The translations under genes were made by a program, and so were the position numbers. Of a stretch of 20,276 nucleotides of DNA, positions 3,925 through 12,134 are shown piece by piece. The stretch lies in UHGV virus genome UHGV-1757948; one strand, written 5' to 3'. Source of the stretch: a virus. The first letter of the stretch is position 1; each line of letters begins with the position of its first letter. The notes under the pieces are model-generated. The model was not told the DNA's origin and ran no database searches. It saw only the letters and a list, made by a program, of their open reading frames with translations.

Positions 3925-4578
3925 ATGAGACGTATAAGAATAGGAAACGACATCATTCTGCGCATAAGGCTTACACGCCGTGGCGGTGCAGAGAACCTCG
4001 AGGGAAAGAAAATAGGTCTTATGCTGCGCAACATTCTCGGCAGTGTGAGCCTTCTTGTAGTACAGTCAGGAGGGGAGCTGATAGCAGGATGGCAGGGCAC
4101 ACAGCAGCAGTGGACAGGTGCGTATACAGTGACACTCACAGAGGATTGGGGCGAGAACAACCGCAACACCGTGGATGAGGCATGCGCCTTCGAGCTTGTG
4201 TCAATAAGCAGCGACGAGGGTGTGGAGACCGGCACCGTGAACATCGAGCTTGACATGGACATCAGCGTGCCGGGCAACGGTCTGTCCGCCTATGAGATAG
4301 CCGTGCTGCACGGCTTTGAGGGCACAGAAGAAGAATGGCTGGAGAGTTTAAAGCCCGACACGAGTAATTTTGTGACAACCGAACAAGTAGCGGAAGACTA
4401 TCAGCCAAAGGGAGATTATGTTACAGAAGCACCTAAGGATGGGAAAAACTATGTACGGAAAGATGGAAGCTGGACTGAGTTTGCAGGAAGTGGAAAAGCT
4501 AATGCCTTTTTTTCGAATAATATCCTTAAATTTGAGAGCGGAGGAGCACAATTTAACAACAACATATTAATAATTTGA
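3925..4578 (+). CDS. Tail fibre protein with a conserved central motif and a phage-fibre-repeat C-terminus
   Basis: ATG at 3925 preceded by AAAGGAG. Contains LSAYEIAVLHGFEGTEEEWLESLK, a motif I recognise from phage tail fibre proteins, followed by an EDYQPKGDYVTEAPKDG repeat. Composition shifts from GC-rich to AT-rich at the motif. Confidence 0.7.
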   Translation: MRRIRIGNDIILRIRLTRRGGAENLEGKKIGLMLRNILGSVSLLVVQSGGELIAGWQGTQQQWTGAYTVTLTEDWGENNRNTVDEACAFELVSISSDEGVETGTVNIELDMDISVPGNGLSAYEIAVLHGFEGTEEEWLESLKPDTSNFVTTEQVAEDYQPKGDYVTEAPKDGKNYVRKDGSWTEFAGSGKANAFFSNNILKFESGGAQFNNNILII

Positions 4579-4580
4579 TT

Positions 4581-5315
4581 ATGTCAGAAAAAATTAGCCA
4601 AATTCAGATTAACGCCGACGTCAGAGATATAGAAGACGCGCAGGCATTACACAAAGGTGATAGTTTAGGCACAATAAATGGACAGTCTTTTAATGAAGGT
4701 AATGACTTAAACATTGAAGTTGGTACCAATGATTACAATGCCCTTAAAAACAAGCCACAAATAAACGGACATGAGTTGTCTGGGAATAAATCAGCAAAAG
4801 ATTTAGGCTTACAAGAAGCAGGTGACTATGTAACTCCCGAAGATATACCCGATGTGAGCGAACTGGCAACAAAGACAGAATTGGCAGAAGGACTGGAAGG
4901 CAAGCAGCCAAAGGGTGATTATGCCACAAAGGCAGAAATACCAGATGTGAGTGGATTTATTACCTCTTCACAAGCGGAAGAAAAATATCAGCCGAAAGGA
5001 ACTTATGTCACCACGACTGAACTATCTAAAAAGGCAGATAAAATCGCAACCGAAAATGTAGCCGAAACTACAAAGGAATTGCAACCGAACAAGTATTACA
5101 TATTTGGCGAAGTTGCCACACTTACCATAACTCTTGCAGCAGGAGAAGAAAATGTCCTTGCTGAATACATGTTTGAGTTTACAAGCGGCACAACTCCAAC
5201 AATATTGTCACTGCCCGAGGACGTTAAATGGATAGGTGAAAGCACGATTGAGGCAAGCAAGACATATCAAGTGAGCATCGTCAATAATATAGCAGTCATG
5301 GGAGGTGCAGCATGA
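4581..5315 (+). CDS. Tail fibre / receptor-binding protein with repeated Q-P-K-G-(D/T)-Y units
   Basis: ATG at 4581 (track start is TTG at 4575). Repeats GKQPKGDYATKAEIPDVSG and EKYQPKGTYVTTTELSKKADK, and a KPQINGHELSGNKSAKDLGLQ motif typical of phage fibre proteins. AT-rich. Stop overlaps the next start (ATGA at 5312-5315). Confidence 0.7.
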   Translation: MSEKISQIQINADVRDIEDAQALHKGDSLGTINGQSFNEGNDLNIEVGTNDYNALKNKPQINGHELSGNKSAKDLGLQEAGDYVTPEDIPDVSELATKTELAEGLEGKQPKGDYATKAEIPDVSGFITSSQAEEKYQPKGTYVTTTELSKKADKIATENVAETTKELQPNKYYIFGEVATLTITLAAGEENVLAEYMFEFTSGTTPTILSLPEDVKWIGESTIEASKTYQVSIVNNIAVMGGAA

Positions 5316-6001
5316 GCATATACAGACGCAGGCTTATGATAGCCAACACACTTAAAAAGAGTGACAGCAACATAAATTATCCTGGACTTATTGCAGCATG
5401 GTCGGCAGCAGGAAAGAGCAATGACGATGCTGATAGAAACGTGTTGCACGATTTGACGGGTAATGGGCTTGACATTACGCTGAACGGCTTTGCGTTCAAT
5501 ACAGAAGGAAGTGGCTATGGACATCCCGAATACCCCGATGCTCTTGTCTTTGACGGAGTGGATGATTACGGTATTAATGAGGAAATGCCGATATTGACTG
5601 ATTATACGGTTATTGTTAAGAGAGAAATATTTAGTGGCGGATTATATTCTCATGTAATCGGAAAACGTACAGGCTCTATACCGGGAGCTTTTTGGTTTGA
5701 AAGAGGTAAAGGAGATACTCATAGCTTTGGAATGGCTAATTCAATCAATATATTAAATGAAAGTATATCTTGGCAGTCCACGACAAGCTATAACGGGACA
5801 CCTATAGAAAAAGGTGAAGCTGAGGATATTCATGAATTAACGATAGGTGTAGCAAGCAAAACATATCCAGATTTTAGGGGTATGGCTTTCTACTCCGCCT
5901 ACCTCTTTGACCGCTCATTGGGTGAGCAGGAGATAAAGTCATTTATTAGAAAGTATATAGACGCAGACTATCTGTTACCGAGTGAACAAACAACAGAATA
6001 A
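5312..6001 (+). CDS. LamG / concanavalin-A-like lectin-domain protein (tail-associated)
   Basis: Segment NVLHDLTGNGLDITLNGFAFNTEGSGYGHPEYPDALVFDGVDDYG resembles Laminin_G_3-type jelly-roll domains; translationally coupled to the upstream fibre gene. Confidence 0.55.
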   Translation: MSIYRRRLMIANTLKKSDSNINYPGLIAAWSAAGKSNDDADRNVLHDLTGNGLDITLNGFAFNTEGSGYGHPEYPDALVFDGVDDYGINEEMPILTDYTVIVKREIFSGGLYSHVIGKRTGSIPGAFWFERGKGDTHSFGMANSINILNESISWQSTTSYNGTPIEKGEAEDIHELTIGVASKTYPDFRGMAFYSAYLFDRSLGEQEIKSFIRKYIDADYLLPSEQTTE

Positions 6002-6006
6002 AGAAT

Positions 6007-6663
6007 ATGAGATTTATTATAGCAACAATAGCACAAGCAAAGGCGCACGGAATTGAGATTATATCGACAATGCGCCAATCAGTGGATAAGACACAAGTAG
6101 TGTTCCACGAAGAATATGTAAAGAACATTGACGAATTTAATGCCTTAAAGAGGTATGAATTTGATGATGCTGAATTTACAGACCTTATGGCAAGTGAAGC
6201 ATGGACACACGGAGAAGATTATGTGCAGCCAAATGAGGACTTTGCAAAGGTATTAGCCATGCAGATATTGACAGCAGACACAAAGGCGCAGATAAACACC
6301 ATGTCGCTGTCTAACAACGAGGCTCTGAAAGTTAAGGAGTTTTATCCCGAATGGAAAGAAGGAATTGACGTCAACAAAGGCGAAAAGTACAACTGTGACG
6401 ATGACCTTTGGGAAGCACTTACAACGCATAAGACGCAGGCGAATTGGCGTCCGTCTTTGGAAACCGCATCTATATGGAAACATATTGACGAGGAACATGA
6501 GGGCACAGAGGACGACCCGATACCATACGCACCGCCTATGGAGTTGTTCAACGGTAAATATTACACGCAAGACGAGGTAAAATACAGGTGTACCCGTGAC
6601 AGCGGAATACCTTTGTCACAGAACCTGAGTGAACTTGTGGGATTATATGTGGAACTTGTTTAA
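6007..6663 (+). CDS. Hypothetical protein (218 aa), last gene of the AT-rich fibre cassette
   Basis: Long ORF with no competing frame, plausible amino-acid composition, no recognisable motif. Confidence 0.5.
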   Translation: MRFIIATIAQAKAHGIEIISTMRQSVDKTQVVFHEEYVKNIDEFNALKRYEFDDAEFTDLMASEAWTHGEDYVQPNEDFAKVLAMQILTADTKAQINTMSLSNNEALKVKEFYPEWKEGIDVNKGEKYNCDDDLWEALTTHKTQANWRPSLETASIWKHIDEEHEGTEDDPIPYAPPMELFNGKYYTQDEVKYRCTRDSGIPLSQNLSELVGLYVELV

Positions 6664-7026: not shown

Positions 7027-7260
7027 ATGAACAAGATTATAATGTGGTTTAAGACAAGCAACCGATGGAAGCATCTGCTTGGCGGTCTGATTATCGGTAT
7101 GGGAGCGGATGATATATACTGTGCGGCATACGCAGGCATAGGCGTTGCGGCAGCCCTTGAACTGAAAGACAGGCAATGGGGCGGCAAATGGGACTGGACA
7201 GACTTCGGGCTGACAACAGCCGGAACAGTTGTGGGACAATGCATAAGGATGATGATATGA
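7027..7260 (+). CDS. Holin-like small membrane protein, paralog of the 6681 gene (possible holin/antiholin pair)
   Basis: Internal ATG at 7027 preceded by GGGAGA. N-terminus MNKIIMWFKTSNRWKHLLGGLIIGMG parallels MKEKVIRFVTNRWFGFVAGLVIAML of the upstream gene. Stop overlaps the next start (ATGA 7257-7260). Confidence 0.45.
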   Translation: MNKIIMWFKTSNRWKHLLGGLIIGMGADDIYCAAYAGIGVAAALELKDRQWGGKWDWTDFGLTTAGTVVGQCIRMMI

Positions 7261-7865
7261 ACGAGGTACAAAGCACATTGGAGGTCGCAAAAGGCATAAG
7301 CGACTATGGGATAATGATAGTCATCTGCGCGGTGTTCCTGCTGCTCGCCTCAGGTCTGATGATTGCGTGTTTCCGCTGGTTCAAATCAGCGATAAGCAAC
7401 ATAATATCCTACACTGACGAGCTGCGCGAGCTTAACGGAAAGCTGGAAAACAACAACCACGTCATGGTGACGATAGCGGAGGGACTGATGCCTGAGACAC
7501 AACTGCGGATAAAGAACATATCCGGAGCGTTCTTTGACCTTGCGGTGGAGAAAGTATGCAGACTCCTGAAGAAAATAAGGGAGGAGAACCATATAGCCGA
7601 CAAGGAAAGGACAAAGGCTAAGATACGCACCCTGCTGAGCAACATGTATGAGGACAGGAACAGCAAGTTCGACAATTTCCATTACCGTGGGAAAAAGCTC
7701 TCGGAGTACTGCAATCCGGAATGGACAGAATGGGTGGCGAAAGTAATAGAGGGAGAGCTGTACAATGAGAACGGTGCGAACAACGGAAGAGCCTACACCA
7801 ACGTCAGCGCAGTATATGACAATATAAAATTGGACTTTTATCACAGAATGACAGACCAGATATGA
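7257..7865 (+). CDS. Signal-anchor membrane protein of the lysis cassette (possible i-spanin-like or lysis regulator)
   Basis: Start taken at ATG 7257 (MNEVQ...) rather than the track start 7176. Single N-terminal TM segment IMIVICAVFLLLASGLMIACF followed by a charged, helical-looking domain; position between holin-like genes and endolysin. Confidence 0.45.
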   Translation: MNEVQSTLEVAKGISDYGIMIVICAVFLLLASGLMIACFRWFKSAISNIISYTDELRELNGKLENNNHVMVTIAEGLMPETQLRIKNISGAFFDLAVEKVCRLLKKIREENHIADKERTKAKIRTLLSNMYEDRNSKFDNFHYRGKKLSEYCNPEWTEWVAKVIEGELYNENGANNGRAYTNVSAVYDNIKLDFYHRMTDQI

Positions 7866-7895
7866 CGATAAACGCATTTTACAACATTATAAATC

Positions 7896-8489
7896 ATGGA
7901 AAAGTTTAAAGTTATACTTGATGCGGGACACGGAAGGGACACCGCAGGGAAACGTTCGCCTGACGGACGCCTGCTCGAATACGCATACGCCCGTGAGATT
8001 GCAGTGCGTCTTGAAAGGGAACTCAAGGCACGTGGATATGACGCGCAGCGCATTGTGCCCGAGGAAAACGACATCTGCCTGAAAGAGCGGTGCGAAAGGG
8101 CAAACAGAATTTATGCCGCGACAGGAAAGAAAGCGATACTTGTCTCAATACACTGTAACGCGGCTGGTGCCGACGGCAAATGGCATGACGCCAGAGGATG
8201 GTCGGCTTATGTCTCGCGCAACGCTTCAAAGAAGAGCAAAGAGCTCGCCTGCCGTCTGATTGACGCGGCAGAGACACAAGGACTGAAAGTCCGAAGATAC
8301 TCACAGGATGAGCCATATTGGACACAGAATCTCGCAATATGCCGTGACACAAATTGTCCCGCAGTCCTGACTGAAAACCTTTTTCAGGACAACCGGGAGG
8401 ACGTGGACTATCTGCTGAGCGAGAAAGGCAAGCGAACCATTGTGGAGCTGCACGTGGAAGGCATCATGGCGTACTTGGGGAAAGTGTGA
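7896..8489 (+). CDS. N-acetylmuramoyl-L-alanine amidase (Amidase_3 family) endolysin
   Basis: Amidase_3 signature segments VILDAGHGRDTAGKRSPDG, VSIHCNAAG and VLTENLFQDNREDVDYL (zinc-ligand and active-site regions); 197 aa; follows the holin-like genes. Confidence 0.9.
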   Translation: MEKFKVILDAGHGRDTAGKRSPDGRLLEYAYAREIAVRLERELKARGYDAQRIVPEENDICLKERCERANRIYAATGKKAILVSIHCNAAGADGKWHDARGWSAYVSRNASKKSKELACRLIDAAETQGLKVRRYSQDEPYWTQNLAICRDTNCPAVLTENLFQDNREDVDYLLSEKGKRTIVELHVEGIMAYLGKV

Positions 8490-8514
8490 GCTCGTTTCCA
8501 AAATGGAAATAACT

Positions 8515-8544
8515 GACGACAGTTGCAAATTCCGCAACCGTCGT
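8515..8544 (+). terminator. Hairpin after the endolysin gene (candidate terminator of the late operon)
   Basis: Inverted repeat ACGACAGTTGC - aaattcc - GCAACCGTCGT (10 of 11 bp paired) starting 26 nt after the amidase stop. No immediate T-run, so intrinsic-terminator status is uncertain. Confidence 0.3.
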
Positions 8545-8627
8545 AAAGGCGTTCTTTGACATTGTGGGTTGCCGTTAAAAATACAATATTTTCGAAAAAT
8601 TATATACAATTATTTTGGGAAATTATA

Positions 8628-8635
8628 TATCTTTG
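8628..8635 (+). promoter_or_regulatory. Possible Bacteroidota-type -7 promoter element (TAnnTTTG) in an AT-rich intergenic region
   Basis: TATCTTTG matches TAnnTTTG about 38 nt upstream of ATG 8673, flanked by direct repeats AAATTATATA (8597-8606 and 8619-8628). Could be chance in AT-rich DNA. Confidence 0.2.
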
Positions 8636-8647
8636 CACAATATAAGA

Positions 8648-8669
8648 AGCCCTTACGGCAATAAGGGCT
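8648..8669 (+). promoter_or_regulatory. Perfect 8-bp stem-loop immediately upstream of the 8673 start codon
   Basis: AGCCCTTA - cggcaa - TAAGGGCT; ends 3 nt before ATG 8673. Could be a 5'-UTR translational control element or a terminator if the gene actually starts at ATG 8709. Confidence 0.35.
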
Positions 8670-8672
8670 GAA

Positions 8673-9302
8673 ATGACAGACGGTGTGCCCGTCTTAAATT
8701 TAAATTATATGGCAAAGATAAATAATAATTTTGAGAAACGAAAACGCATCACGAAAAATGAAGCGTTGGAACTGCTAAAAGATTGTTATGAGGACATCTT
8801 CAAGGCGTATTACGCAGGTCTGGAAAATTACAATGAAGAAATAAATATGACCATACCTGAAGCAAGGACAAGGCTTGTAGGTCCTTTGCTTAACGCAAAA
8901 ATAACAGAGAGTTTCATTCTCACATTTCCCGAGAACTGGAACAAAGGCAAATACGGAAGGATAATATTCAGATGGAACGGTGTGCTCATGCTCATCAAGA
9001 AATTGAACAAGAATGACAAGCCGTCTTACATTCCGACAATACTTTCAGATTCGATTGTCAACCAATACCAATTACCGCTTTTCCAAGGCGATGAAGGCAA
9101 GGAAGAGCCGATATTGATTTTCGGATATACAAAGGACGGTTTCGGGCAGCTCGTAAACCCGAGAATTGTCTTGTATGACGATGGGGTTCAATGGACTGCC
9201 TATATGGAAGACGGTGTAAATATGCCGACTGCCAATACAGACACGCAGGAGATTATTGTCCGCCTGAAAAAGAAAGAGACAGGAGAAAAGAAGGCAGAAT
9301 AA
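8673..9302 (+). CDS. Hypothetical protein (209 aa) in the AT-rich accessory insert
   Basis: Long ORF with plausible composition and no recognisable motif. Alternative start at ATG 8709 (MAKINNN). Confidence 0.5.
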   Translation: MTDGVPVLNLNYMAKINNNFEKRKRITKNEALELLKDCYEDIFKAYYAGLENYNEEINMTIPEARTRLVGPLLNAKITESFILTFPENWNKGKYGRIIFRWNGVLMLIKKLNKNDKPSYIPTILSDSIVNQYQLPLFQGDEGKEEPILIFGYTKDGFGQLVNPRIVLYDDGVQWTAYMEDGVNMPTANTDTQEIIVRLKKKETGEKKAE

Positions 9303-9354
9303 CAGCAGGGCACACCGTCTGTTTTCAACAAACGACCTATAAAAGCAACGTCTT

Positions 9355-10410
9355 ATGAAATGTGAGCAGCTAACATTCGCAAGGGAATACAGGGGATTTA
9401 CGCAAACCGCACTCGCGGCAAAAGTCAAAGGGCTATCGCAATCCAACCTGTCAAAATATGAAAAGGGGTTTGGCGGGCTGTCAGACAACATGCTTAGTTT
9501 GATTATGTCCACGCTTGATTTTCCGATGAAATTCCTTGACATGAATATTGTGAACAAGGTTGACAGCAAGCATTACAGGAAAAAGGCAACCATAACCGTA
9601 AAGACACGCAACGAGATAGACAGGACAATATCCCTGATTGCGTATTGTTTTGATTGGCTTAGTGAATTTGTCGAGATACCTGACTATTCATTTGGATACT
9701 ACGACATGGACAACGGCATAAGCCCGGAGGAACTTGCCGGGCACATAAGGAACAAATACAGGCTCGGCATGTCGCCTATATCCGATATTTGCAATTTCCT
9801 TGAGCGCAATGGGGTATTCATTTACATGTGGGACAGTCCTAACGACGAGTTTGACGGGGTATCCCTGATAACTGACGCAGGCAATCATCTTATCATTGTG
9901 AACAGGAACAGAAGCAACGACAGGGTAAGGTTTACGCTTGCACATGAGCTGGGACACATACTGATGCACGAGTGCCCAAGTTTCCCGGTATTCAGCATTA
10001 GAGACAAGGAGAAAGAGGCGAACGCTTTTGCATCAGAGTTCCTTCTCCCCTCCCAGGCTGTCAGAAACGCCTTGCACAATGTCAGGCTCGGACAGTTCCC
10101 TGAGCTGAAACGGTATTGGCTTGTTTCCATGGCATCACTTTTGGAAAAGGCAAAAAACATAAACGCCATTGCAAGTGAGAAGTACAAGTCTATGAGAATG
10201 GAGTTCAGCAGACGCCATTGGAATAAGAAAGAACCTTACGAAGTGCCTATTGACAGCCCTACCGTCTTTGAGCAGGCATATAGGCTGGTATCGGACACAT
10301 TGGGGTATTCAATCAGCATGATTTCGGAAAGCACAGGCTTGCCCGAGGATGTCTTGATAAAGATATTCGGCAAATCTGCGAGGATAATATCATTAAAGCC
10401 ACTAATATAA
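9355..10410 (+). CDS. XRE-family HTH domain fused to an ImmA/IrrE (M78) zinc metallopeptidase domain
   Basis: N-terminal HTH (FTQTALAAKVKGLSQSNLSKYEKG) and central HEXXH motif within FTLAHELGHILMHE, typical of COG2856/Peptidase_M78; 351 aa. Confidence 0.85.
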   Translation: MKCEQLTFAREYRGFTQTALAAKVKGLSQSNLSKYEKGFGGLSDNMLSLIMSTLDFPMKFLDMNIVNKVDSKHYRKKATITVKTRNEIDRTISLIAYCFDWLSEFVEIPDYSFGYYDMDNGISPEELAGHIRNKYRLGMSPISDICNFLERNGVFIYMWDSPNDEFDGVSLITDAGNHLIIVNRNRSNDRVRFTLAHELGHILMHECPSFPVFSIRDKEKEANAFASEFLLPSQAVRNALHNVRLGQFPELKRYWLVSMASLLEKAKNINAIASEKYKSMRMEFSRRHWNKKEPYEVPIDSPTVFEQAYRLVSDTLGYSISMISESTGLPEDVLIKIFGKSARIISLKPLI

Positions 10411-10492
10411 CAATTATCTATTTTGATACAACACAGGCGGTGACCCACATATCAAGGGTTGCCGCTTTTTGTTTAATAAAAAATGAAAGAAC

Positions 10493-11002
10493 ATGGGAAG
10501 ATTTAAAGGATTGCTTGTGGTAGTATCGGTGTTGTTGACCGCATCATTATGCGTCAACATACTCCAGTGCAGTAATGCCGGAAAGAAAACAACGAATCAG
10601 GACACAGTACGGACTACATATATAGACACCATTCCGTTCTTGAATCCTGTACCCAAAGACAGTACGGTGATACGGTATGTTACGGAGACGTTGCCCGTGA
10701 CTTGCCGCAAAGACACGATATACGAAGAGAAGGGCGGGAATACAGGCGACAGCGTCAAGGTGACACTGCCTATAACTTCCAAAGTCTATAAGGACAGTAC
10801 CTATACCGCATACGTGAGCGGATTCCGCGCGAATCTTGACAGTATATTTGTATATCCGAGACACGAGACTGTAACTGTCACAAGGTACAAGGAAAGTCCG
10901 CGCCTTGGCGTCGGTATTGCCGCAGGTTACGGTATAGGGAAAGACATGAAACCGACACCTTTCATAGGAATATCCGTATATTATAGGCTTTGGCAGTGGT
11001 AG
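10493..11002 (+). CDS. Secreted or membrane-anchored hypothetical protein (169 aa)
   Basis: N-terminal hydrophobic signal-like segment LLVVVSVLLTASLCVNILQC and an aromatic C-terminus (YYRLWQW). Preferred over the Arg/Cys-rich antisense ORF 10547-11137. Confidence 0.45.
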   Translation: MGRFKGLLVVVSVLLTASLCVNILQCSNAGKKTTNQDTVRTTYIDTIPFLNPVPKDSTVIRYVTETLPVTCRKDTIYEEKGGNTGDSVKVTLPITSKVYKDSTYTAYVSGFRANLDSIFVYPRHETVTVTRYKESPRLGVGIAAGYGIGKDMKPTPFIGISVYYRLWQW

Positions 11003-11004
11003 TA

Positions 11005-11208
11005 TCAGCCATCTGGGAACAGTCTTTCGTAGAACTCTCCCTGCCGTCGCACCAAAGCTTCCCCATAGTCCAACCCGTAAACATCGGCATCGTGCCTTGC
11101 TATGCGTCGCACACGAGCCTGTGCCGAGCGCGGACAATGTATGGCAATCAGATGCTCTGCCTCGGCAAACAGACGGGCGGAGTATTCATCATTTGGCATC
11201 TGTGTCAT
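11005..11208 (-). CDS. Small hypothetical protein (67 aa)
   Basis: ATG at 11208 preceded on the minus strand by AAAAGGAGG with a 6-nt spacer; GC-rich. Confidence 0.4.
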   Translation of the reverse strand: MTQMPNDEYSARLFAEAEHLIAIHCPRSAQARVRRIARHDADVYGLDYGEALVRRQGEFYERLFPDG

Positions 11209-11599
11209 CAGATTCCTCCTTTTCTGAGTTTATAGATACGAACAATCTCTCGTAGTCATCACAACTGATTTCAAAGCAGTTCTGACTTATTACTCCGTCA
11301 GAATCCCCGAAAACGTAAAACGGGGTATACGGACTGTATGTCTTCAGGACACCCACATCCTTTTTGTTGTCCTGCCTGTGTCTGATATAGAACCAGTAAT
11401 GAGGTCTTTTGTAACCGACACACCATAGCAGCATAAGGACAAACAACAAGAAGAAAAAACAGAAAAACCATTTCGGCAGGAAAACGTCAATCAGAAAGAA
11501 TGTAACCCATGCCGTTACCATTACGGCGAAAGCCTCAAAAGATGTCTTGTAATCAAAATTTTTCATTTTCATAATATGTTTAATATTTCTTATTCCCAT
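11189..11599 (-). CDS. Small membrane protein with two TM segments
   Basis: Hydrophobic stretches FAVMVTAWVTFFLIDVFL and FFCFFFLLFVLMLLWCVGY. Start may be a downstream ATG (about 11572 or 11566), which would remove the overlap with the upstream gene. Confidence 0.45.
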   Translation of the reverse strand: MGIRNIKHIMKMKNFDYKTSFEAFAVMVTAWVTFFLIDVFLPKWFFCFFFLLFVLMLLWCVGYKRPHYWFYIRHRQDNKKDVGVLKTYSPYTPFYVFGDSDGVISQNCFEISCDDYERLFVSINSEKEESDDTDAK

Positions 11600-12134
11600 G
11601 CTTAAATGGGCGGAGTCTGTTATAGCGCATCTTCTGCTCGACGTAGAAGTCGATGTCGATATCGTTTTGGTGGCAGAATAAGATAATGAGGGCTACAGTG
11701 AGATTGATTTTTTCGCAAAGGGCTTCCTTATATAAACAAAGTCCCTCACAAAGATGGTACATGACGACGGGGAATGGCTCATTAATGAATTTTGCGTCTG
11801 AAGCAAGAAACTCGTCAACGTAATGCAGGGATATTCCGCGCAGTGCAGCCAAGTCCAAACAGCGTATGATGATGTCGCTAAGTTCATCCTCAACCGAGTT
11901 TTTGACGTGTGTCTCAAATTCATACTTAAATACAACGTCGTCATCGGCGTATGTTCCAAGTAATGCTTTGAAAAGGTCAATGTCCGTGTGCCTGTCCTTG
12001 CGGTCTGCCTGTACAGCTTCAGATATCTCAGTAATGATAAGCATCAAATAAGTTTCGTCAGGCAGTTCTTCATCGTGCCATCCGTGCGTCTTTGCGGTCT
12101 CAAAAACTGCTTTTGATAATTTAGTCAAATCCAT
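11580..12134 (-). CDS. MazG-like nucleoside triphosphate pyrophosphohydrolase (all-alpha NTP-PPase)
   Basis: Motifs LMLIITEISEAVQADRKD and EDELSDIIIRCLDLAALRGISL (metal-binding E-x-x-E/D helices) and C-terminal KMRYNRLRPFKHGNKKY, characteristic of phage MazG-like proteins. Confidence 0.65.
   Translation of the reverse strand: MDLTKLSKAVFETAKTHGWHDEELPDETYLMLIITEISEAVQADRKDRHTDIDLFKALLGTYADDDVVFKYEFETHVKNSVEDELSDIIIRCLDLAALRGISLHYVDEFLASDAKFINEPFPVVMYHLCEGLCLYKEALCEKINLTVALIILFCHQNDIDIDFYVEQKMRYNRLRPFKHGNKKY

What the first reader, a model, noticed from the sequence alone, without database searches (positions are those of the whole stretch)
8490..10410. AT-rich accessory (moron-like) cassette between the lysis module and the convergent early block: unknown 209-aa protein plus XRE-HTH/M78-peptidase fusion
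After the endolysin there is a hairpin, an AT-rich intergenic region with direct repeats and a promoter-like element, then two genes whose composition is distinctly AT-richer than the late genes. The second is an HTH plus HEXXH metallopeptidase fusion (ImmA/IrrE type). Such fusions act as stress-sensing repressors or as the regulatory or antitoxin partner of two-gene toxin-antitoxin or abortive-infection modules. Its position is atypical for a lysogeny repressor and typical for a moron. The 209-aa partner has no recognisable motif and may be a novel effector.
Basis: partly seen in the sequence, partly recalled or inferred. Interest (0 to 1): 0.62.

Follow-up and report, generated by a model that had tools for sequence, protein, structure and literature searches.

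The report
Phage-borne Rosmer-like toxin–antitoxin cassette with RNA control
A gut Prevotella/Segatella phage carries, inside its lysis genes, a mobile two-gene toxin–antitoxin-type (Rosmer-like) cassette with an uncatalogued partner protein, and comparison of about 150 related copies points to an undescribed RNA control layer around the putative toxin gene: a long-range mRNA helix and a predicted antisense RNA.

Summary
Gene 1 starts at 8709 (197 aa, not 209). The AT-richness is within the window's normal range. The cassette lies inside the lysis module, not after it, because the lysis-linked DUF6808 gene follows it.

The 351-aa protein is a full-length match to RmrA, the HTH + M78 peptidase antitoxin of Rosmer defence systems (E = 5e-59). 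Gene 1 has no Pfam, PHROG, PADLOC, NCBIfam or PDB match. Its confident AF2 model has no significant structural neighbour.

The pair is inseparable: 75 of 75 gene-1 loci carry RmrA, and 79 of 80 RmrA loci carry gene 1. It occurs in three phage groups next to lysis genes, and in bacterial chromosomes, including marine Flavobacteriia. A sister phage has lost it.

New findings:
- A 12–20-bp helix pairs the leader (8676–8690) with the sequence just after the toxin stop codon (9308–9322). There are 34 strong arm-sequence variants, with 17 G·U and 0 A·C.
- A convergent minus-strand promoter box sits on toxin codons 2–4.
- A minus-strand terminator shows wobble pairs valid only on that strand.
- Together the last two predict a ~70-nt antisense RNA.

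Toxicity, defence and the transcripts themselves remain untested.

The parts
8516..8544 (+). Hairpin after the endolysin stop codon. It belongs to the phage backbone, probably the end of the late/lysis transcript, and is not part of the cassette core.
   Evidence: This region is replaced by a different hairpin in sister phage L018.
8581..8628 (+). Two tandem 23-nt repeats, each reading ATACAAT-N11-ATTATAT. They are candidate operators O1 and O2 for the HTH of RmrA, and they abut and overlap the promoter.
   Evidence: The repeats were found. The ATACAA / TTATATA blocks are conserved from Bacteroidales to Flavobacteriia, although the proteins are only 40-55% identical. Binding by RmrA is an inference.
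8628..8635 (+). Sense -7 promoter box TATCTTTG (Bacteroidota consensus TAnnTTTG) for the toxin-RmrA operon.
   Evidence: Invariant TATAT.TTTG in alignment A3. A plus-strand box falls in the -90..-61 bin in 59 of 66 unique loci, against 0-12 in the other 30-nt bins of the cassette.
8648..8669 (-). Hairpin 1 (AGCCCTTA/TAAGGGCT). Read on the minus strand and followed by a U-rich run, it is the predicted intrinsic terminator of the antisense RNA. It also lies at the 5' end of the sense mRNA.
   Evidence: Covariation: 7 of 8 pairs show compensatory changes. Among 24 distinct stems, plus-strand reading gives 216 Watson-Crick, 9 A.C and 1 G.U pairs, so the wobbles are valid only on the minus strand. 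The plus-strand A-run before the hairpin is nearly invariant. The scan lists it as a minus-strand terminator.
8638..8708 (-). Predicted cis-antisense sRNA of about 65-70 nt. It is complementary to the toxin mRNA leader up to about the AUG. The ends are approximate.
   Evidence: Defined by the conserved minus-strand -7 box and the minus-strand terminator. It folds as a 5' single-stranded A/U tail, a stem-loop and a terminator, z = -3.9. No transcript data are available, and there is no Rfam match.
8676..8690 (+). Left arm of the long-range mRNA helix (ACAGACGGTGTGCCC). It ends 18 nt before the toxin ATG.
   Evidence: Perfect 15-nt complement of 9308-9322. The helix is present in the MFE and centroid folds of 8642-9370. 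Covariation is documented.
8678..8694 (+). Local leader hairpin H2 (AGACGG-TGTGC-CCGTCT). It is mutually exclusive with the long-range helix.
   Evidence: It forms in the leader folded alone. All 6 of its pairs show compensatory changes, with G.U pairs in the sense reading.
8713..8720 (-). Minus-strand -7 promoter box TATCTTTG, lying on toxin codons 2-4. It is part of a 15-nt inverted copy of the sense promoter core (8712-8726 versus 8622-8636).
   Evidence: (repeat I2). An exact TAnnTTTG box lies at +4 to +25 of the ATG in 53 of 71 unique leaders, in two different reading frames. It falls in the 0..+29 bin in 50 of 66 loci, against 0-3 in most other bins.
8709..9302 (+). Gene 1: a 197-aa protein of an uncatalogued family, the putative toxin/effector (RmrT-like partner).
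9308..9322 (+). Right arm of the long-range helix (GGGCACACCGTCTGT). It starts 5 nt after the toxin stop codon and ends 32 nt before the RmrA ATG. Its sequence is identical to the H2' region of the predicted antisense RNA.
   Evidence: The intergenic region folded alone has no stable structure, z = -0.04.
9355..10410 (+). RmrA-type protein, 351 aa: XRE-family HTH, M78 (ImmA/IrrE) Zn-peptidase and a C-terminal region. Putative antitoxin and autorepressor.
   Evidence: Pfam HTH_3 at 3.7e-6 and Peptidase_M78 at 7.9e-18. PADLOC RmrA at 5e-59. phrog_2439 at 5e-75. NCBIfam spr1629-family antitoxin at 7.6e-32, below its cutoff. H197, E198, H201 and H205 are invariant across 15 lineages and E228 is nearly so.
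10435..10474 (+). Intrinsic terminator after RmrA: a 12-bp stem followed by a U-run.
   Evidence: dG = -22.5 kcal/mol, z = -4.9. Homology with the cassette-less phage L018 resumes at 10456.
10493..11002 (+). Context gene: a DUF6808 protein with a signal-peptide-like N-terminus. It is a lysis-module-associated gene lying downstream of the cassette.
   Evidence: Pfam DUF6808 at 3.4e-27. It adjoins the endolysin in L018 and L019-L024, and it precedes the cassette in L040.

Best explanation
Region 8581-10474 is a self-contained, horizontally mobile toxin-antitoxin/abortive-infection-type cassette of the Rosmer kind. A temperate Prevotella/Segatella phage carries it as a moron inside its lysis module.

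Shown by sequence comparison:
- A 197-aa protein of an uncatalogued family is always followed, on the same strand, by an RmrA-type HTH + M78 peptidase with an intact zinc site.
- The pair carries its own conserved promoter with two operator-like repeats, and its own terminator.
- The mRNA contains a covarying helix that pairs the leader with the 15 nt just after the toxin stop codon. This helix competes with a local leader hairpin.
- A second, convergent promoter box on toxin codons 2-4, together with a minus-strand terminator, specifies a ~70-nt antisense RNA over the toxin's translation start region.

Inferred mechanism:
- RmrA represses the operon at the repeats and neutralises the gene-1 protein.
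- The antisense RNA blocks toxin translation or triggers leader cleavage.
- The long-range helix has a 3' arm that is a sequence copy of the antisense RNA's recognition hairpin. It holds full-length toxin mRNA in an inert state, comparable to tac-fbi end-pairing in hok mRNA.
- When transcription of the cassette stops, for example on takeover by a superinfecting phage or on loss of the element, the labile RNA and protein antidotes decay. The toxin is then made and stops the cell.

The biochemical target of the toxin is unknown. Its basic, nuclease-like but acid-residue-poor fold suggests nucleic-acid binding.
For: RmrA identity:
- Full-length RmrA match and intact HEXXH.
- Rosmer biology: the antitoxin is a Zn-peptidase, toxins are diverse and often unannotatable, toxin-first order occurs in 58% of cases, and a phage-encoded example exists.

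Pair and mobility:
- Obligate pairing: 75 of 75 and 79 of 80 loci.
- The only exception, L163, is a solo RmrA that keeps the promoter. No solo gene 1 was found in about 155 loci.
- Contexts span three phage groups and several chromosomes.
- Sister phage L018 has lost the cassette but keeps the operator remnant.

Long-range helix:
- 154 loci gave 41 distinct arm pairs, of which 34 are strong (10-20 bp).
- Pair counts are 458 Watson-Crick, 17 G.U, 0 A.C and 4 other, under a scoring scheme blind to G.U.
- The 12-bp core is 94% Watson-Crick, against 22-32% when the register is slid, and 0 of 2000 permutations reach the observed value.
- The helix appears in both the MFE and the centroid fold, z = -4.2.

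Antisense RNA:
- The minus-strand -7 box is sharply localised at the toxin start in 50 of 66 loci and in two reading frames.
- Hairpin 1 shows 9 A.C against 1 G.U when read on the plus strand, the mirror image of the long-range helix. It is followed on the minus strand by a conserved U-run.

H1 and H2 covary on an unfitted alignment: 13 of 14 pairs change on both sides, and 0 of 500 shuffles reach the observed score.
Against: - There is no experimental or transcript evidence. Toxicity of gene 1, neutralisation by RmrA, the defence phenotype, the existence of the antisense RNA and the effect of the helix are all inferred.
- Gene 1 matches none of PADLOC's RmrT models, so current tools would not call this a Rosmer system.
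- About 25% of leaders lack an exact minus-strand TAnnTTTG. Several of these clades carry one-mismatch variants such as TATCTTTC or TATCTTGC.
- In the window's own lineage the antisense terminator U-run is weak (UCUUAUAUU).
- The left arm ends 18 nt before the AUG, and H2 ends 14 nt before it. Neither structure obviously occludes the start codon, so how the helix changes translation is unclear.
Confidence: 0.6

Rival explanations
1. The HTH-M78 protein is a prophage or ICE-type stress-sensing regulator. It would be an ImmR/ImmA- or IrrE/DdrO-like repressor-protease that controls induction or lysis timing. Gene 1 would be its regulated target or co-factor, not a toxin.
For: The M78/ImmA domain with an XRE HTH is the architecture of such regulators (background). 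Operator-like repeats overlap the promoter. The location is next to the lysis genes.
Against: The same pair, with the same promoter and RNA elements, sits in non-phage chromosomal sites. In Rasiella it lies between rlmH-like and housekeeping genes, and in S. copri in LPS/ATPase islands. A sister phage lacks it. It is not near an integrase or lysogeny module within the window. The elaborate RNA-level silencing applies to gene 1 only, and a solo RmrA exists while a solo gene 1 was never found. Both points fit a dangerous gene-1 product.
Confidence: 0.12
2. The inverted repeats bracketing gene 1 are DNA recombination sites of an inverton that flips the toxin gene as a phase-variable switch. On this view they are not an RNA helix.
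For: There are perfect 15-nt inverted repeats 617 nt apart. Arms kept identical within an element but different between elements would also be expected from gene conversion at inversion sites. Invertons are common in Bacteroidales (own knowledge).
Against: All 17 transition-type mismatches in 34 distinct helices are G.U on the sense strand, and none is A.C. This asymmetry is expected for RNA and not for DNA. None of about 155 loci has gene 1 inverted relative to RmrA. No recombinase is linked to the cassette, and the arm sequences share no motif.
Confidence: 0.03
3. The long-range helix is an RNase III processing stalk, like those flanking rRNAs. It would excise the toxin cistron from the dicistronic mRNA, so that less toxin than antitoxin is made from a toxin-first operon. 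No hok-like inert pool or antisense competition is involved. This is an alternative for the helix's role only and is compatible with the toxin-antitoxin reading.
For: The helix is a 12-20-bp, near-perfect duplex, extendable to about 20-28 pairs with bulges. It closes exactly around the toxin ORF, 15-40 nt before the ATG (median 19) and 4-20 nt after the stop (median 8). There is precedent for 5'-3' UTR pairing cleaved by RNase III in icaR mRNA (PMC3868564, found).
Against: There are no processing data. Many of the helices are shorter than the roughly two helical turns preferred by RNase III (own knowledge). This model does not explain why the right arm duplicates the antisense RNA's hairpin, or why a competing local hairpin, H2, is conserved.
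Confidence: 0.25
4. There is no antisense RNA. The CAAAnnTA motif at the toxin start would reflect N-terminal peptide or translation-initiation preferences. Hairpin 1 would simply be a 5' stabiliser of the sense mRNA.
For: The N-terminus reads M-x-(A/T)-K-(I/V/L) in many members. A-rich early codons are common (own knowledge). The U-run is weak in the window's own lineage. There is no transcript evidence.
Against: The motif occurs in two different reading frames, at +4/+7 and at +8. It is confined to one 30-nt bin. In the window it is part of a 15-nt inverted copy of the sense promoter. The wobble pairs of hairpin 1 are valid only on the minus strand, 9 against 1. The A-run before the hairpin is nearly invariant.
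Confidence: 0.25

Closest known systems
RosmerTA (RmrT/RmrA) anti-phage toxin-antitoxin systems (Millman et al. 2022; NetFlax node D25, Ernits et al. 2023)
   Same: The antitoxin-type protein has an XRE HTH plus an ImmA/IrrE M78 Zn-peptidase and matches the RmrA profiles full-length. It forms a two-gene operon with an unannotatable partner. The order is toxin-first. The system is carried by phages as well as chromosomes; Gordonia phage Kita is the precedent.
   Different: The partner protein matches no catalogued RmrT model. Its host range is Bacteroidota. No RNA layer was mentioned in the Rosmer passages I read.
hok/sok type I toxin-antitoxin system (tac-fbi mRNA end-pairing plus Sok antisense RNA)
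   Same: A long-range pairing between the toxin mRNA leader and the sequence 3' of the toxin ORF, supported by covariation. An alternative local 5' hairpin. A short cis-antisense RNA, transcribed convergently across the toxin translation-initiation region (predicted here).
   Different: The toxin here is a 197-aa soluble protein, not a membrane peptide of about 50 aa. The 3' arm is internal to a dicistronic mRNA and is followed by a protein-antitoxin gene. The phylum is Bacteroidota, which uses SD-independent translation (own knowledge). All RNA functions here are inferred.
Type II TA loci co-regulated by antisense RNAs (M. tuberculosis RelBE2 'type IIb', PMC9325379; aMEF/mazEF, PMC8749433)
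   Same: A protein toxin and a protein antitoxin, plus a cis-antisense transcript.
   Different: The protein families are different. Going by their titles and abstracts, those systems show no conserved intramolecular mimic of the antisense RNA. Here the RNA elements are conserved across a whole family, down to 29% protein identity.
ImmR/ImmA (ICEBs1) and IrrE/DdrO repressor-protease regulators; spr1629-family Xre-COG2856 antitoxins
   Same: An M78 protease domain combined with an XRE HTH, and autoregulated promoters. NCBIfam spr1629 gives a sub-threshold match at 7.6e-32.
   Different: The HTH and the protease are fused in one 351-aa protein. That protein is obligately paired with gene 1, is not linked to an integrase or an SOS-type module, and occurs as an autonomous two-gene unit.

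Membership tests
RosmerTA | The RmrA component is an XRE-type HTH fused to an M78 (ImmA/IrrE) Zn-peptidase with HEXXH. | tested here: met
   Pfam HTH_3 and Peptidase_M78. 14 PADLOC RmrA models match at 5e-59 to 2e-31 over residues 3-343. H197, E198, H201 and H205 are invariant.
RosmerTA | The adjacent partner belongs to a recognised RmrT toxin family. | tested here: not met
   There is no PADLOC hit at E <= 0.1 for the window protein. None of 10 remote family members hits an RmrT model at E <= 0.01; the only hits are incidental (DpdF for P0176, a weak AriB for P0201). RmrT is defined by context and is highly diverse, so this result makes gene 1 a new partner family rather than excluding a Rosmer-like system.
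RosmerTA | A conserved two-gene operon that moves as a unit. | tested here: met
   75 of 75 and 79 of 80 loci; a 40-70-nt gap on the same strand; diverse genomic contexts.
RosmerTA | The toxin is growth-inhibitory and is neutralised by RmrA, and the system protects against phages. | not testable with these tools
   The evidence is only indirect. One solo RmrA exists (L163) but no solo gene 1. RNA silencing is focused on gene 1.
Type I TA (hok/sok-like) | A small hydrophobic toxin peptide. | tested here: not met
   The AF2 model of the 209-aa ORF (197-aa protein plus the spurious N-terminal extension) is a globular alpha/beta fold with pLDDT above 90 in the core.
Type I TA (hok/sok-like) | A cis-encoded antisense RNA overlapping the toxin translation-initiation region. 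| tested here: inconclusive
   A conserved convergent -7 box and a minus-strand terminator with strand-specific wobble pairs are present. No transcript data are available.
Type I TA (hok/sok-like) | Long-range 5'-3' pairing of the toxin mRNA, supported by covariation. | tested here: met
   Its functional consequence was not tested.
Phage moron | An autonomous transcription unit (own promoter and terminator) that is present or absent among related phages and is dispensable. | tested here: met
   Promoter box and terminator. L018 lacks 8648-10455 but keeps 94-98% identical flanking genes. The deviant-composition criterion is only weakly met.
Lysogeny repressor / ImmR-ImmA-type induction module | Linked to an integrase or lysogeny switch, and restricted to mobile elements that it regulates. 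| tested here: not met
   The cassette is located in the lysis module. It also occurs at stand-alone chromosomal sites with housekeeping neighbours.
PD-(D/E)xK nuclease superfamily (for gene 1) | The alpha-beta-beta-beta-alpha-beta core with the catalytic D...(D/E)xK residues. | tested here: not met

The most novel reading that the evidence does not exclude
The cassette is a hybrid toxin-antitoxin system in which one large protein toxin is held in check by both a protein antitoxin (RmrA) and an RNA antitoxin. A built-in copy of the antisense RNA's recognition hairpin, placed just after the toxin stop codon, gates access to the leader. This would be a hok-like 'mRNA end-pairing' mechanism evolved independently in Bacteroidota, in a Rosmer-type phage-defence module, and conserved from gut Prevotella phages to marine Flavobacteriia.
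Probability: 0.4. Interest if true: 0.85.

Novelty: new variant of a known kind. Interest (0 to 1): 0.72.

Why it matters
- Rosmer systems are among the least understood defence/TA systems. How the toxin is restrained and how infection releases it are both unknown.
- This family offers a compact partner protein found only in Bacteroidota in these searches, with no known fold neighbour.
- It also offers an RNA layer with sharply defined, mutable elements, which makes the release mechanism directly testable.
- If confirmed, these would be, to my knowledge, the first hok-type end-pairing and the first type I-like antisense control reported for a Rosmer system and for Bacteroidota.
- It would also be a phage-borne example that may shape superinfection exclusion among abundant human-gut Prevotella/Segatella phages.
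- For annotation, the gene-1 family (118 clusters at 50% identity, all named 'hypothetical') could be added to defence-system catalogues as an RmrT-like partner.

Tried and rejected
- DNA search of 7800-11100 against GenBank phages gave only one 159-bp weak hit, which was uninformative.
- A PDB sequence-profile search with the family alignment gave only chance hits, E >= 0.36.
- The Foldseek afdb50 library was unavailable. Foldseek against PDB and BFVD gave nothing below E = 0.1.
- Rfam gave no match on either strand of 8400-10600.
- A MAFFT alignment of artificially joined helix arms (A2) slipped register and was discarded. The pair statistics were computed on anchored arms in Python instead.
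- The ~96-aa 'C-terminal half' proteins in the representative search (P0188, P0193) were examined as possible truncated toxins. They come from sub-1.2-kb, low-coverage contigs with contig-end or frameshift artefacts, so no conclusion was drawn.
- The right arm plus a U-run as a long-range transcription terminator was rejected, because the U-run is not conserved (for example L051, L062, L066).
- A -33 TTTG element at canonical spacing upstream of the sense -7 box was not found by eye.
- DNA inversion was rejected on the wobble asymmetry and the absence of any inverted copy.
- Composition as evidence of foreign origin was judged weak.
Full report
**1. What is in the window**

The window is identical to IMG/VR contig UViG_3300045988_136180 (42.9 kb). 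Near-identical copies lie inside contigs of 120-560 kb, including an uncultured Prevotella MAG. The window is therefore part of a temperate Prevotella/Segatella phage.

The + strand carries, in order:
- tail genes;
- a phrog_19698 membrane protein (7176-7865);
- an Amidase_3 endolysin (7896-8489);
- the two genes of the finding;
- a DUF6808 protein (10493-11002).

A convergent minus-strand block follows, starting with a 67-aa ORF and including a MazG-like pyrophosphatase.

**2. Checking the observation**

These features are all present:
- the post-endolysin hairpin at 8516-8544;
- the AT-rich spacer (GC 0.356);
- the two 23-nt direct repeats, 8581-8603 and 8604-8626;
- a Bacteroidota -7 box, TATCTTTG, at 8628-8635;
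- the HTH_3 + Peptidase_M78 protein with HELGH.

Three corrections are needed.

First, gene 1 is 197 aa and starts at 8709, for three reasons:
- Homologues are 195-199 aa and align from M13.
- Sister phages have ATT where the window has the 8673 ATG.
- The stretch 8676-8694 is occupied by conserved RNA elements.

Second, composition is a weak argument. Gene 1 has GC 0.407 and RmrA 0.454. Other late genes are 0.41-0.43 and one early gene is 0.366.

Third, the cassette lies inside the lysis module. DUF6808 directly follows the endolysin in sister phage L018. It adjoins the endolysin in the distant phages L019-L024. In phage group L040 it precedes the cassette.

**3. The proteins**

The 351-aa protein matches 14 PADLOC RmrA models full-length (5e-59 to 2e-31) and phrog_2439 (5e-75). 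It also gives a sub-threshold NCBIfam match to spr1629-family Xre-COG2856 antitoxins. Across 15 lineages (43-87% identical to the window protein), H197, E198, H201 and H205 are invariant and E228 is nearly so. The peptidase site is therefore maintained.

RmrA is the antitoxin of RosmerTA. In that family:
- toxins are diverse and often have no detectable homology;
- the toxin-first order is common (58%);
- a phage-encoded example has been validated.

Gene 1 has 124 close homologues, and a full profile search of 1.84 billion representatives gives only 118 clusters. Every named member is 'hypothetical protein', for example Segatella copri WP_217744757.1. Neither gene 1 nor 10 remote members hit Pfam, PHROGs, an RmrT model in PADLOC, or NCBIfam.

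The AF2 model is confident: pLDDT 82 overall, above 90 across residues 20-180. It has three helices followed by a beta-beta-beta-alpha-beta-beta-beta unit. It has no significant structural neighbour:
- Foldseek E is at least 0.12 against PDB and BFVD.

The insignificant top hits are consistently PD-(D/E)xK nucleases. The family has no invariant Asp or Glu. It does have many invariant Arg, Lys and aromatic residues: R23, R67, K93, Y94, R96, R100, K109, R164 and W174. I read it as a nucleic-acid-binding-like protein of unknown activity. It is not a virion protein.

**4. Neighbourhood analysis**

- Retrieval by gene 1: 75 of 75 loci carry the RmrA homologue 40-70 nt downstream on the same strand.
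- Retrieval by RmrA: 79 of 80 viral loci carry gene 1 upstream.
- The exception, L163, keeps the operator/promoter. It runs straight into RmrA, with the toxin and its leader missing.
- No solo gene 1 was seen.

The contexts are varied:
- the window's phage lineage;
- a Bacteroides phage, after a GH108 endolysin (L006-L009);
- a third phage group, after DUF6808 (L040);
- S. copri chromosomes, among glycosyltransferase and ATPase genes;
- a contig with KilA-N and HicB genes;
- the complete Rasiella sp. SM2506 chromosome, between CtaA, RlmH-like and sugar-nucleotidyltransferase genes;
- a Maribacter MAG and a TARA ocean contig.

Sister phage L018 has flanking genes 94-98% identical to the window's. 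It lacks window positions 8648-10455. It retains the two operator repeats, and its -7 box is damaged. It therefore looks like a deletion derivative.

**5. The promoter region**

An alignment of 20 divergent leaders shows two units of ATACAAT-N11-ATTATAT followed by TAT(C/A)TTTG. This region is far better conserved than the proteins, even in Flavobacteriia.

The plus-strand -7 box falls in one 30-nt bin in 59 of 66 unique loci. That RmrA's HTH binds the repeats and autoregulates the operon is an inference.

**6. A long-range mRNA helix (new)**

Positions 8676-8690 (ACAGACGGTGTGCCC) are perfectly complementary to 9308-9322. The two arms bracket the toxin ORF: the left arm ends 18 nt before the ATG, and the right arm starts 5 nt after the stop.

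Equivalent helices occur at the same place in other lineages, with different sequences. Over 154 loci:
- there are 41 distinct arm pairs, of which 34 form 10-20-bp helices;
- those 34 cover 132 of the 154 loci;
- the left arm ends 15-40 nt before the ATG (median 19), and the right arm begins 4-20 nt after the stop (median 8).

Under a scoring scheme that treats G.U like any other mismatch, the 34 helices contain 458 Watson-Crick, 17 G.U, 0 A.C and 4 other pairs.

For 23 anchored helices, the 12-bp core is 94% Watson-Crick. Slid registers give 22-32%. Every position shows 3-4 pair types. None of 2000 permutations reaches the observed pairing.

The G.U-only asymmetry shows that selection acts on the plus-strand RNA. 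This excludes a DNA inversion site. In addition, none of about 155 loci has gene 1 inverted.

The helix appears in both the MFE and the centroid fold of 8642-9370, z = -4.2. A local hairpin, H2 (8678-8683/8689-8694), uses the same 5' strand and covaries. The two structures are therefore alternatives.

**7. A predicted antisense RNA (new)**

A second TATCTTTG lies on the minus strand at 8720-8713, on toxin codons 2-4. It sits inside a 15-nt inverted copy of the sense promoter core.

An exact minus-strand TAnnTTTG lies at +4 to +25 of the ATG in 53 of 71 unique leaders. It occurs in two reading frames, so protein constraint does not explain it. It falls in one 30-nt bin in 50 of 66 loci, against 0-3 in most other bins.

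Hairpin 1 (8648-8669) covaries. Its non-Watson-Crick pairs, read on the plus strand, are 9 A.C against 1 G.U. They are therefore wobble pairs only on the minus strand. This is the mirror image of the long-range helix and serves as an internal control for that analysis.

The hairpin is preceded on the plus strand by a nearly invariant A-run. On the minus strand this reads as a hairpin followed by a U-run, which is a canonical intrinsic terminator. It is weaker in the window's own lineage, where the run reads UCUUAUAUU.

Promoter and terminator together predict an RNA of about 65-70 nt, from about 8708 to about 8638. It is complementary to the toxin's initiation region, to H2 and to hairpin 1. 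It folds as an A/U tail, a stem-loop and a terminator, z = -3.9. There is no Rfam match, and I have no transcript data.

**8. Mechanism**

Shown by comparison:
- the obligate pairing of the two genes;
- the mobility of the cassette;
- the conserved promoter and operator-like repeats;
- the sense-strand helix;
- the antisense-strand terminator and promoter box.

Inferred:
- RmrA acts as autorepressor and protein antitoxin.
- The antisense RNA acts as a second antidote, at the level of toxin translation.
- The helix is a cis element gating the leader. Its right arm is sequence-identical to the antisense RNA's H2' hairpin, so the two compete for the same site.

The closest mechanistic precedent is hok/sok, with its tac-fbi end-pairing, metastable 5' hairpins and Sok antisense RNA. 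The papers found include PMC9841398.

An RNase III 'processing stalk' that lowers the toxin:antitoxin ratio is a serious alternative for the helix's role. The precedent is icaR 5'-3' UTR pairing (PMC3868564).

Antisense RNAs in type II systems are known (PMC9325379, PMC8749433). The combination is therefore not unprecedented in principle. I found no report of it for Rosmer systems or for Bacteroidota.

**9. Verdict**

This is a moron-like, Rosmer-type TA/Abi cassette with a novel partner protein.

The system is best filed as a new variant of a known kind:
- a bona fide RmrA;
- an uncatalogued RmrT-like partner;
- a conserved, previously undescribed RNA layer.

The main uncertainties are experimental: toxicity, defence, the existence of the antisense transcript, and what the helix does.

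Noticed in passing
window 10493-11002 (also L018 5001-5510, L019-L024, L040 3809-4276): The DUF6808 protein (phrog_26448) has a signal-peptide/lipoprotein-like N-terminus. It is consistently adjacent to the endolysin in several Bacteroidales phage groups, in either gene order. It is probably an uncharacterised lysis-module component, perhaps spanin-like or another envelope-disrupting accessory.
   Followed up: partly
L018 4740-5000 (IMGVR_UViG_3300045988_126137): This sister phage lacks the cassette but keeps both operator repeats, with a damaged -7 box (TATGCTAAAA). It looks like a scar of cassette deletion rather than an ancestral empty site.
   Followed up: yes
L163 2300-2520 (IMGVR_UViG_2537561632_000002): A solo RmrA homologue sits directly behind the conserved operator/promoter. 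The toxin gene, the leader hairpins and the long-range helix are all absent. This is an orphan-antitoxin derivative.
   Followed up: partly
window 8673-8708: The mechanical ORF start (ATG 8673) that gives 209 aa is spurious. It lies in the leader, overlaps the helix arm, and reads ATT in sister phages.
   Followed up: yes
protein cluster of window 9355-10410, members P0242, P0244, P0246, P0251: The 90%-identity cluster holding RmrA also lists 169-aa members that are in fact DUF6808 proteins. This is apparently a clustering artefact, possibly caused by a read-through or fused representative.
   Followed up: partly
L083 255-902 and L082: AT-rich, Flavobacteriia-like copies of gene 1 appear split or frameshifted on very short, low-coverage contigs. 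Whether they are real toxin pseudogenes or assembly errors could not be decided.
   Followed up: partly
window 4575-6663: A run of low-GC (0.41-0.43) late genes follows the 1230-aa tail protein. Related phages L010 and L011 differ in gene content in this region. This suggests a swappable tail-fibre or host-range region.
   Followed up: no
window 11580-12134 (-) and the 11005-11599 (-) ORFs: A MazG-like pyrophosphatase (phrog_9236, 2.5e-47) and two small ORFs open the convergent block. The 136-aa ORF has predicted membrane-like hydrophobic stretches. MazG varies between sister phages (61-68% identity) while its neighbours are 95-100% identical.
   Followed up: no
L001-L005 7872-9029 and L006-L008 about 10790-11630 (L008: 7027-7872): Chromosomal and phage copies of the cassette sit beside ATPase_2/AAA-family genes, a PDDEXK_9 protein and an Mrr_cat restriction-like gene. 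These are defence-island-like surroundings.
   Followed up: no
P0016 (255 aa): One homologue is annotated as a fusion of the N-terminal 131 residues of gene 1 with an EamA (PF00892) domain, on a 2-kb contig. It is probably chimeric or mis-assembled.
   Followed up: no
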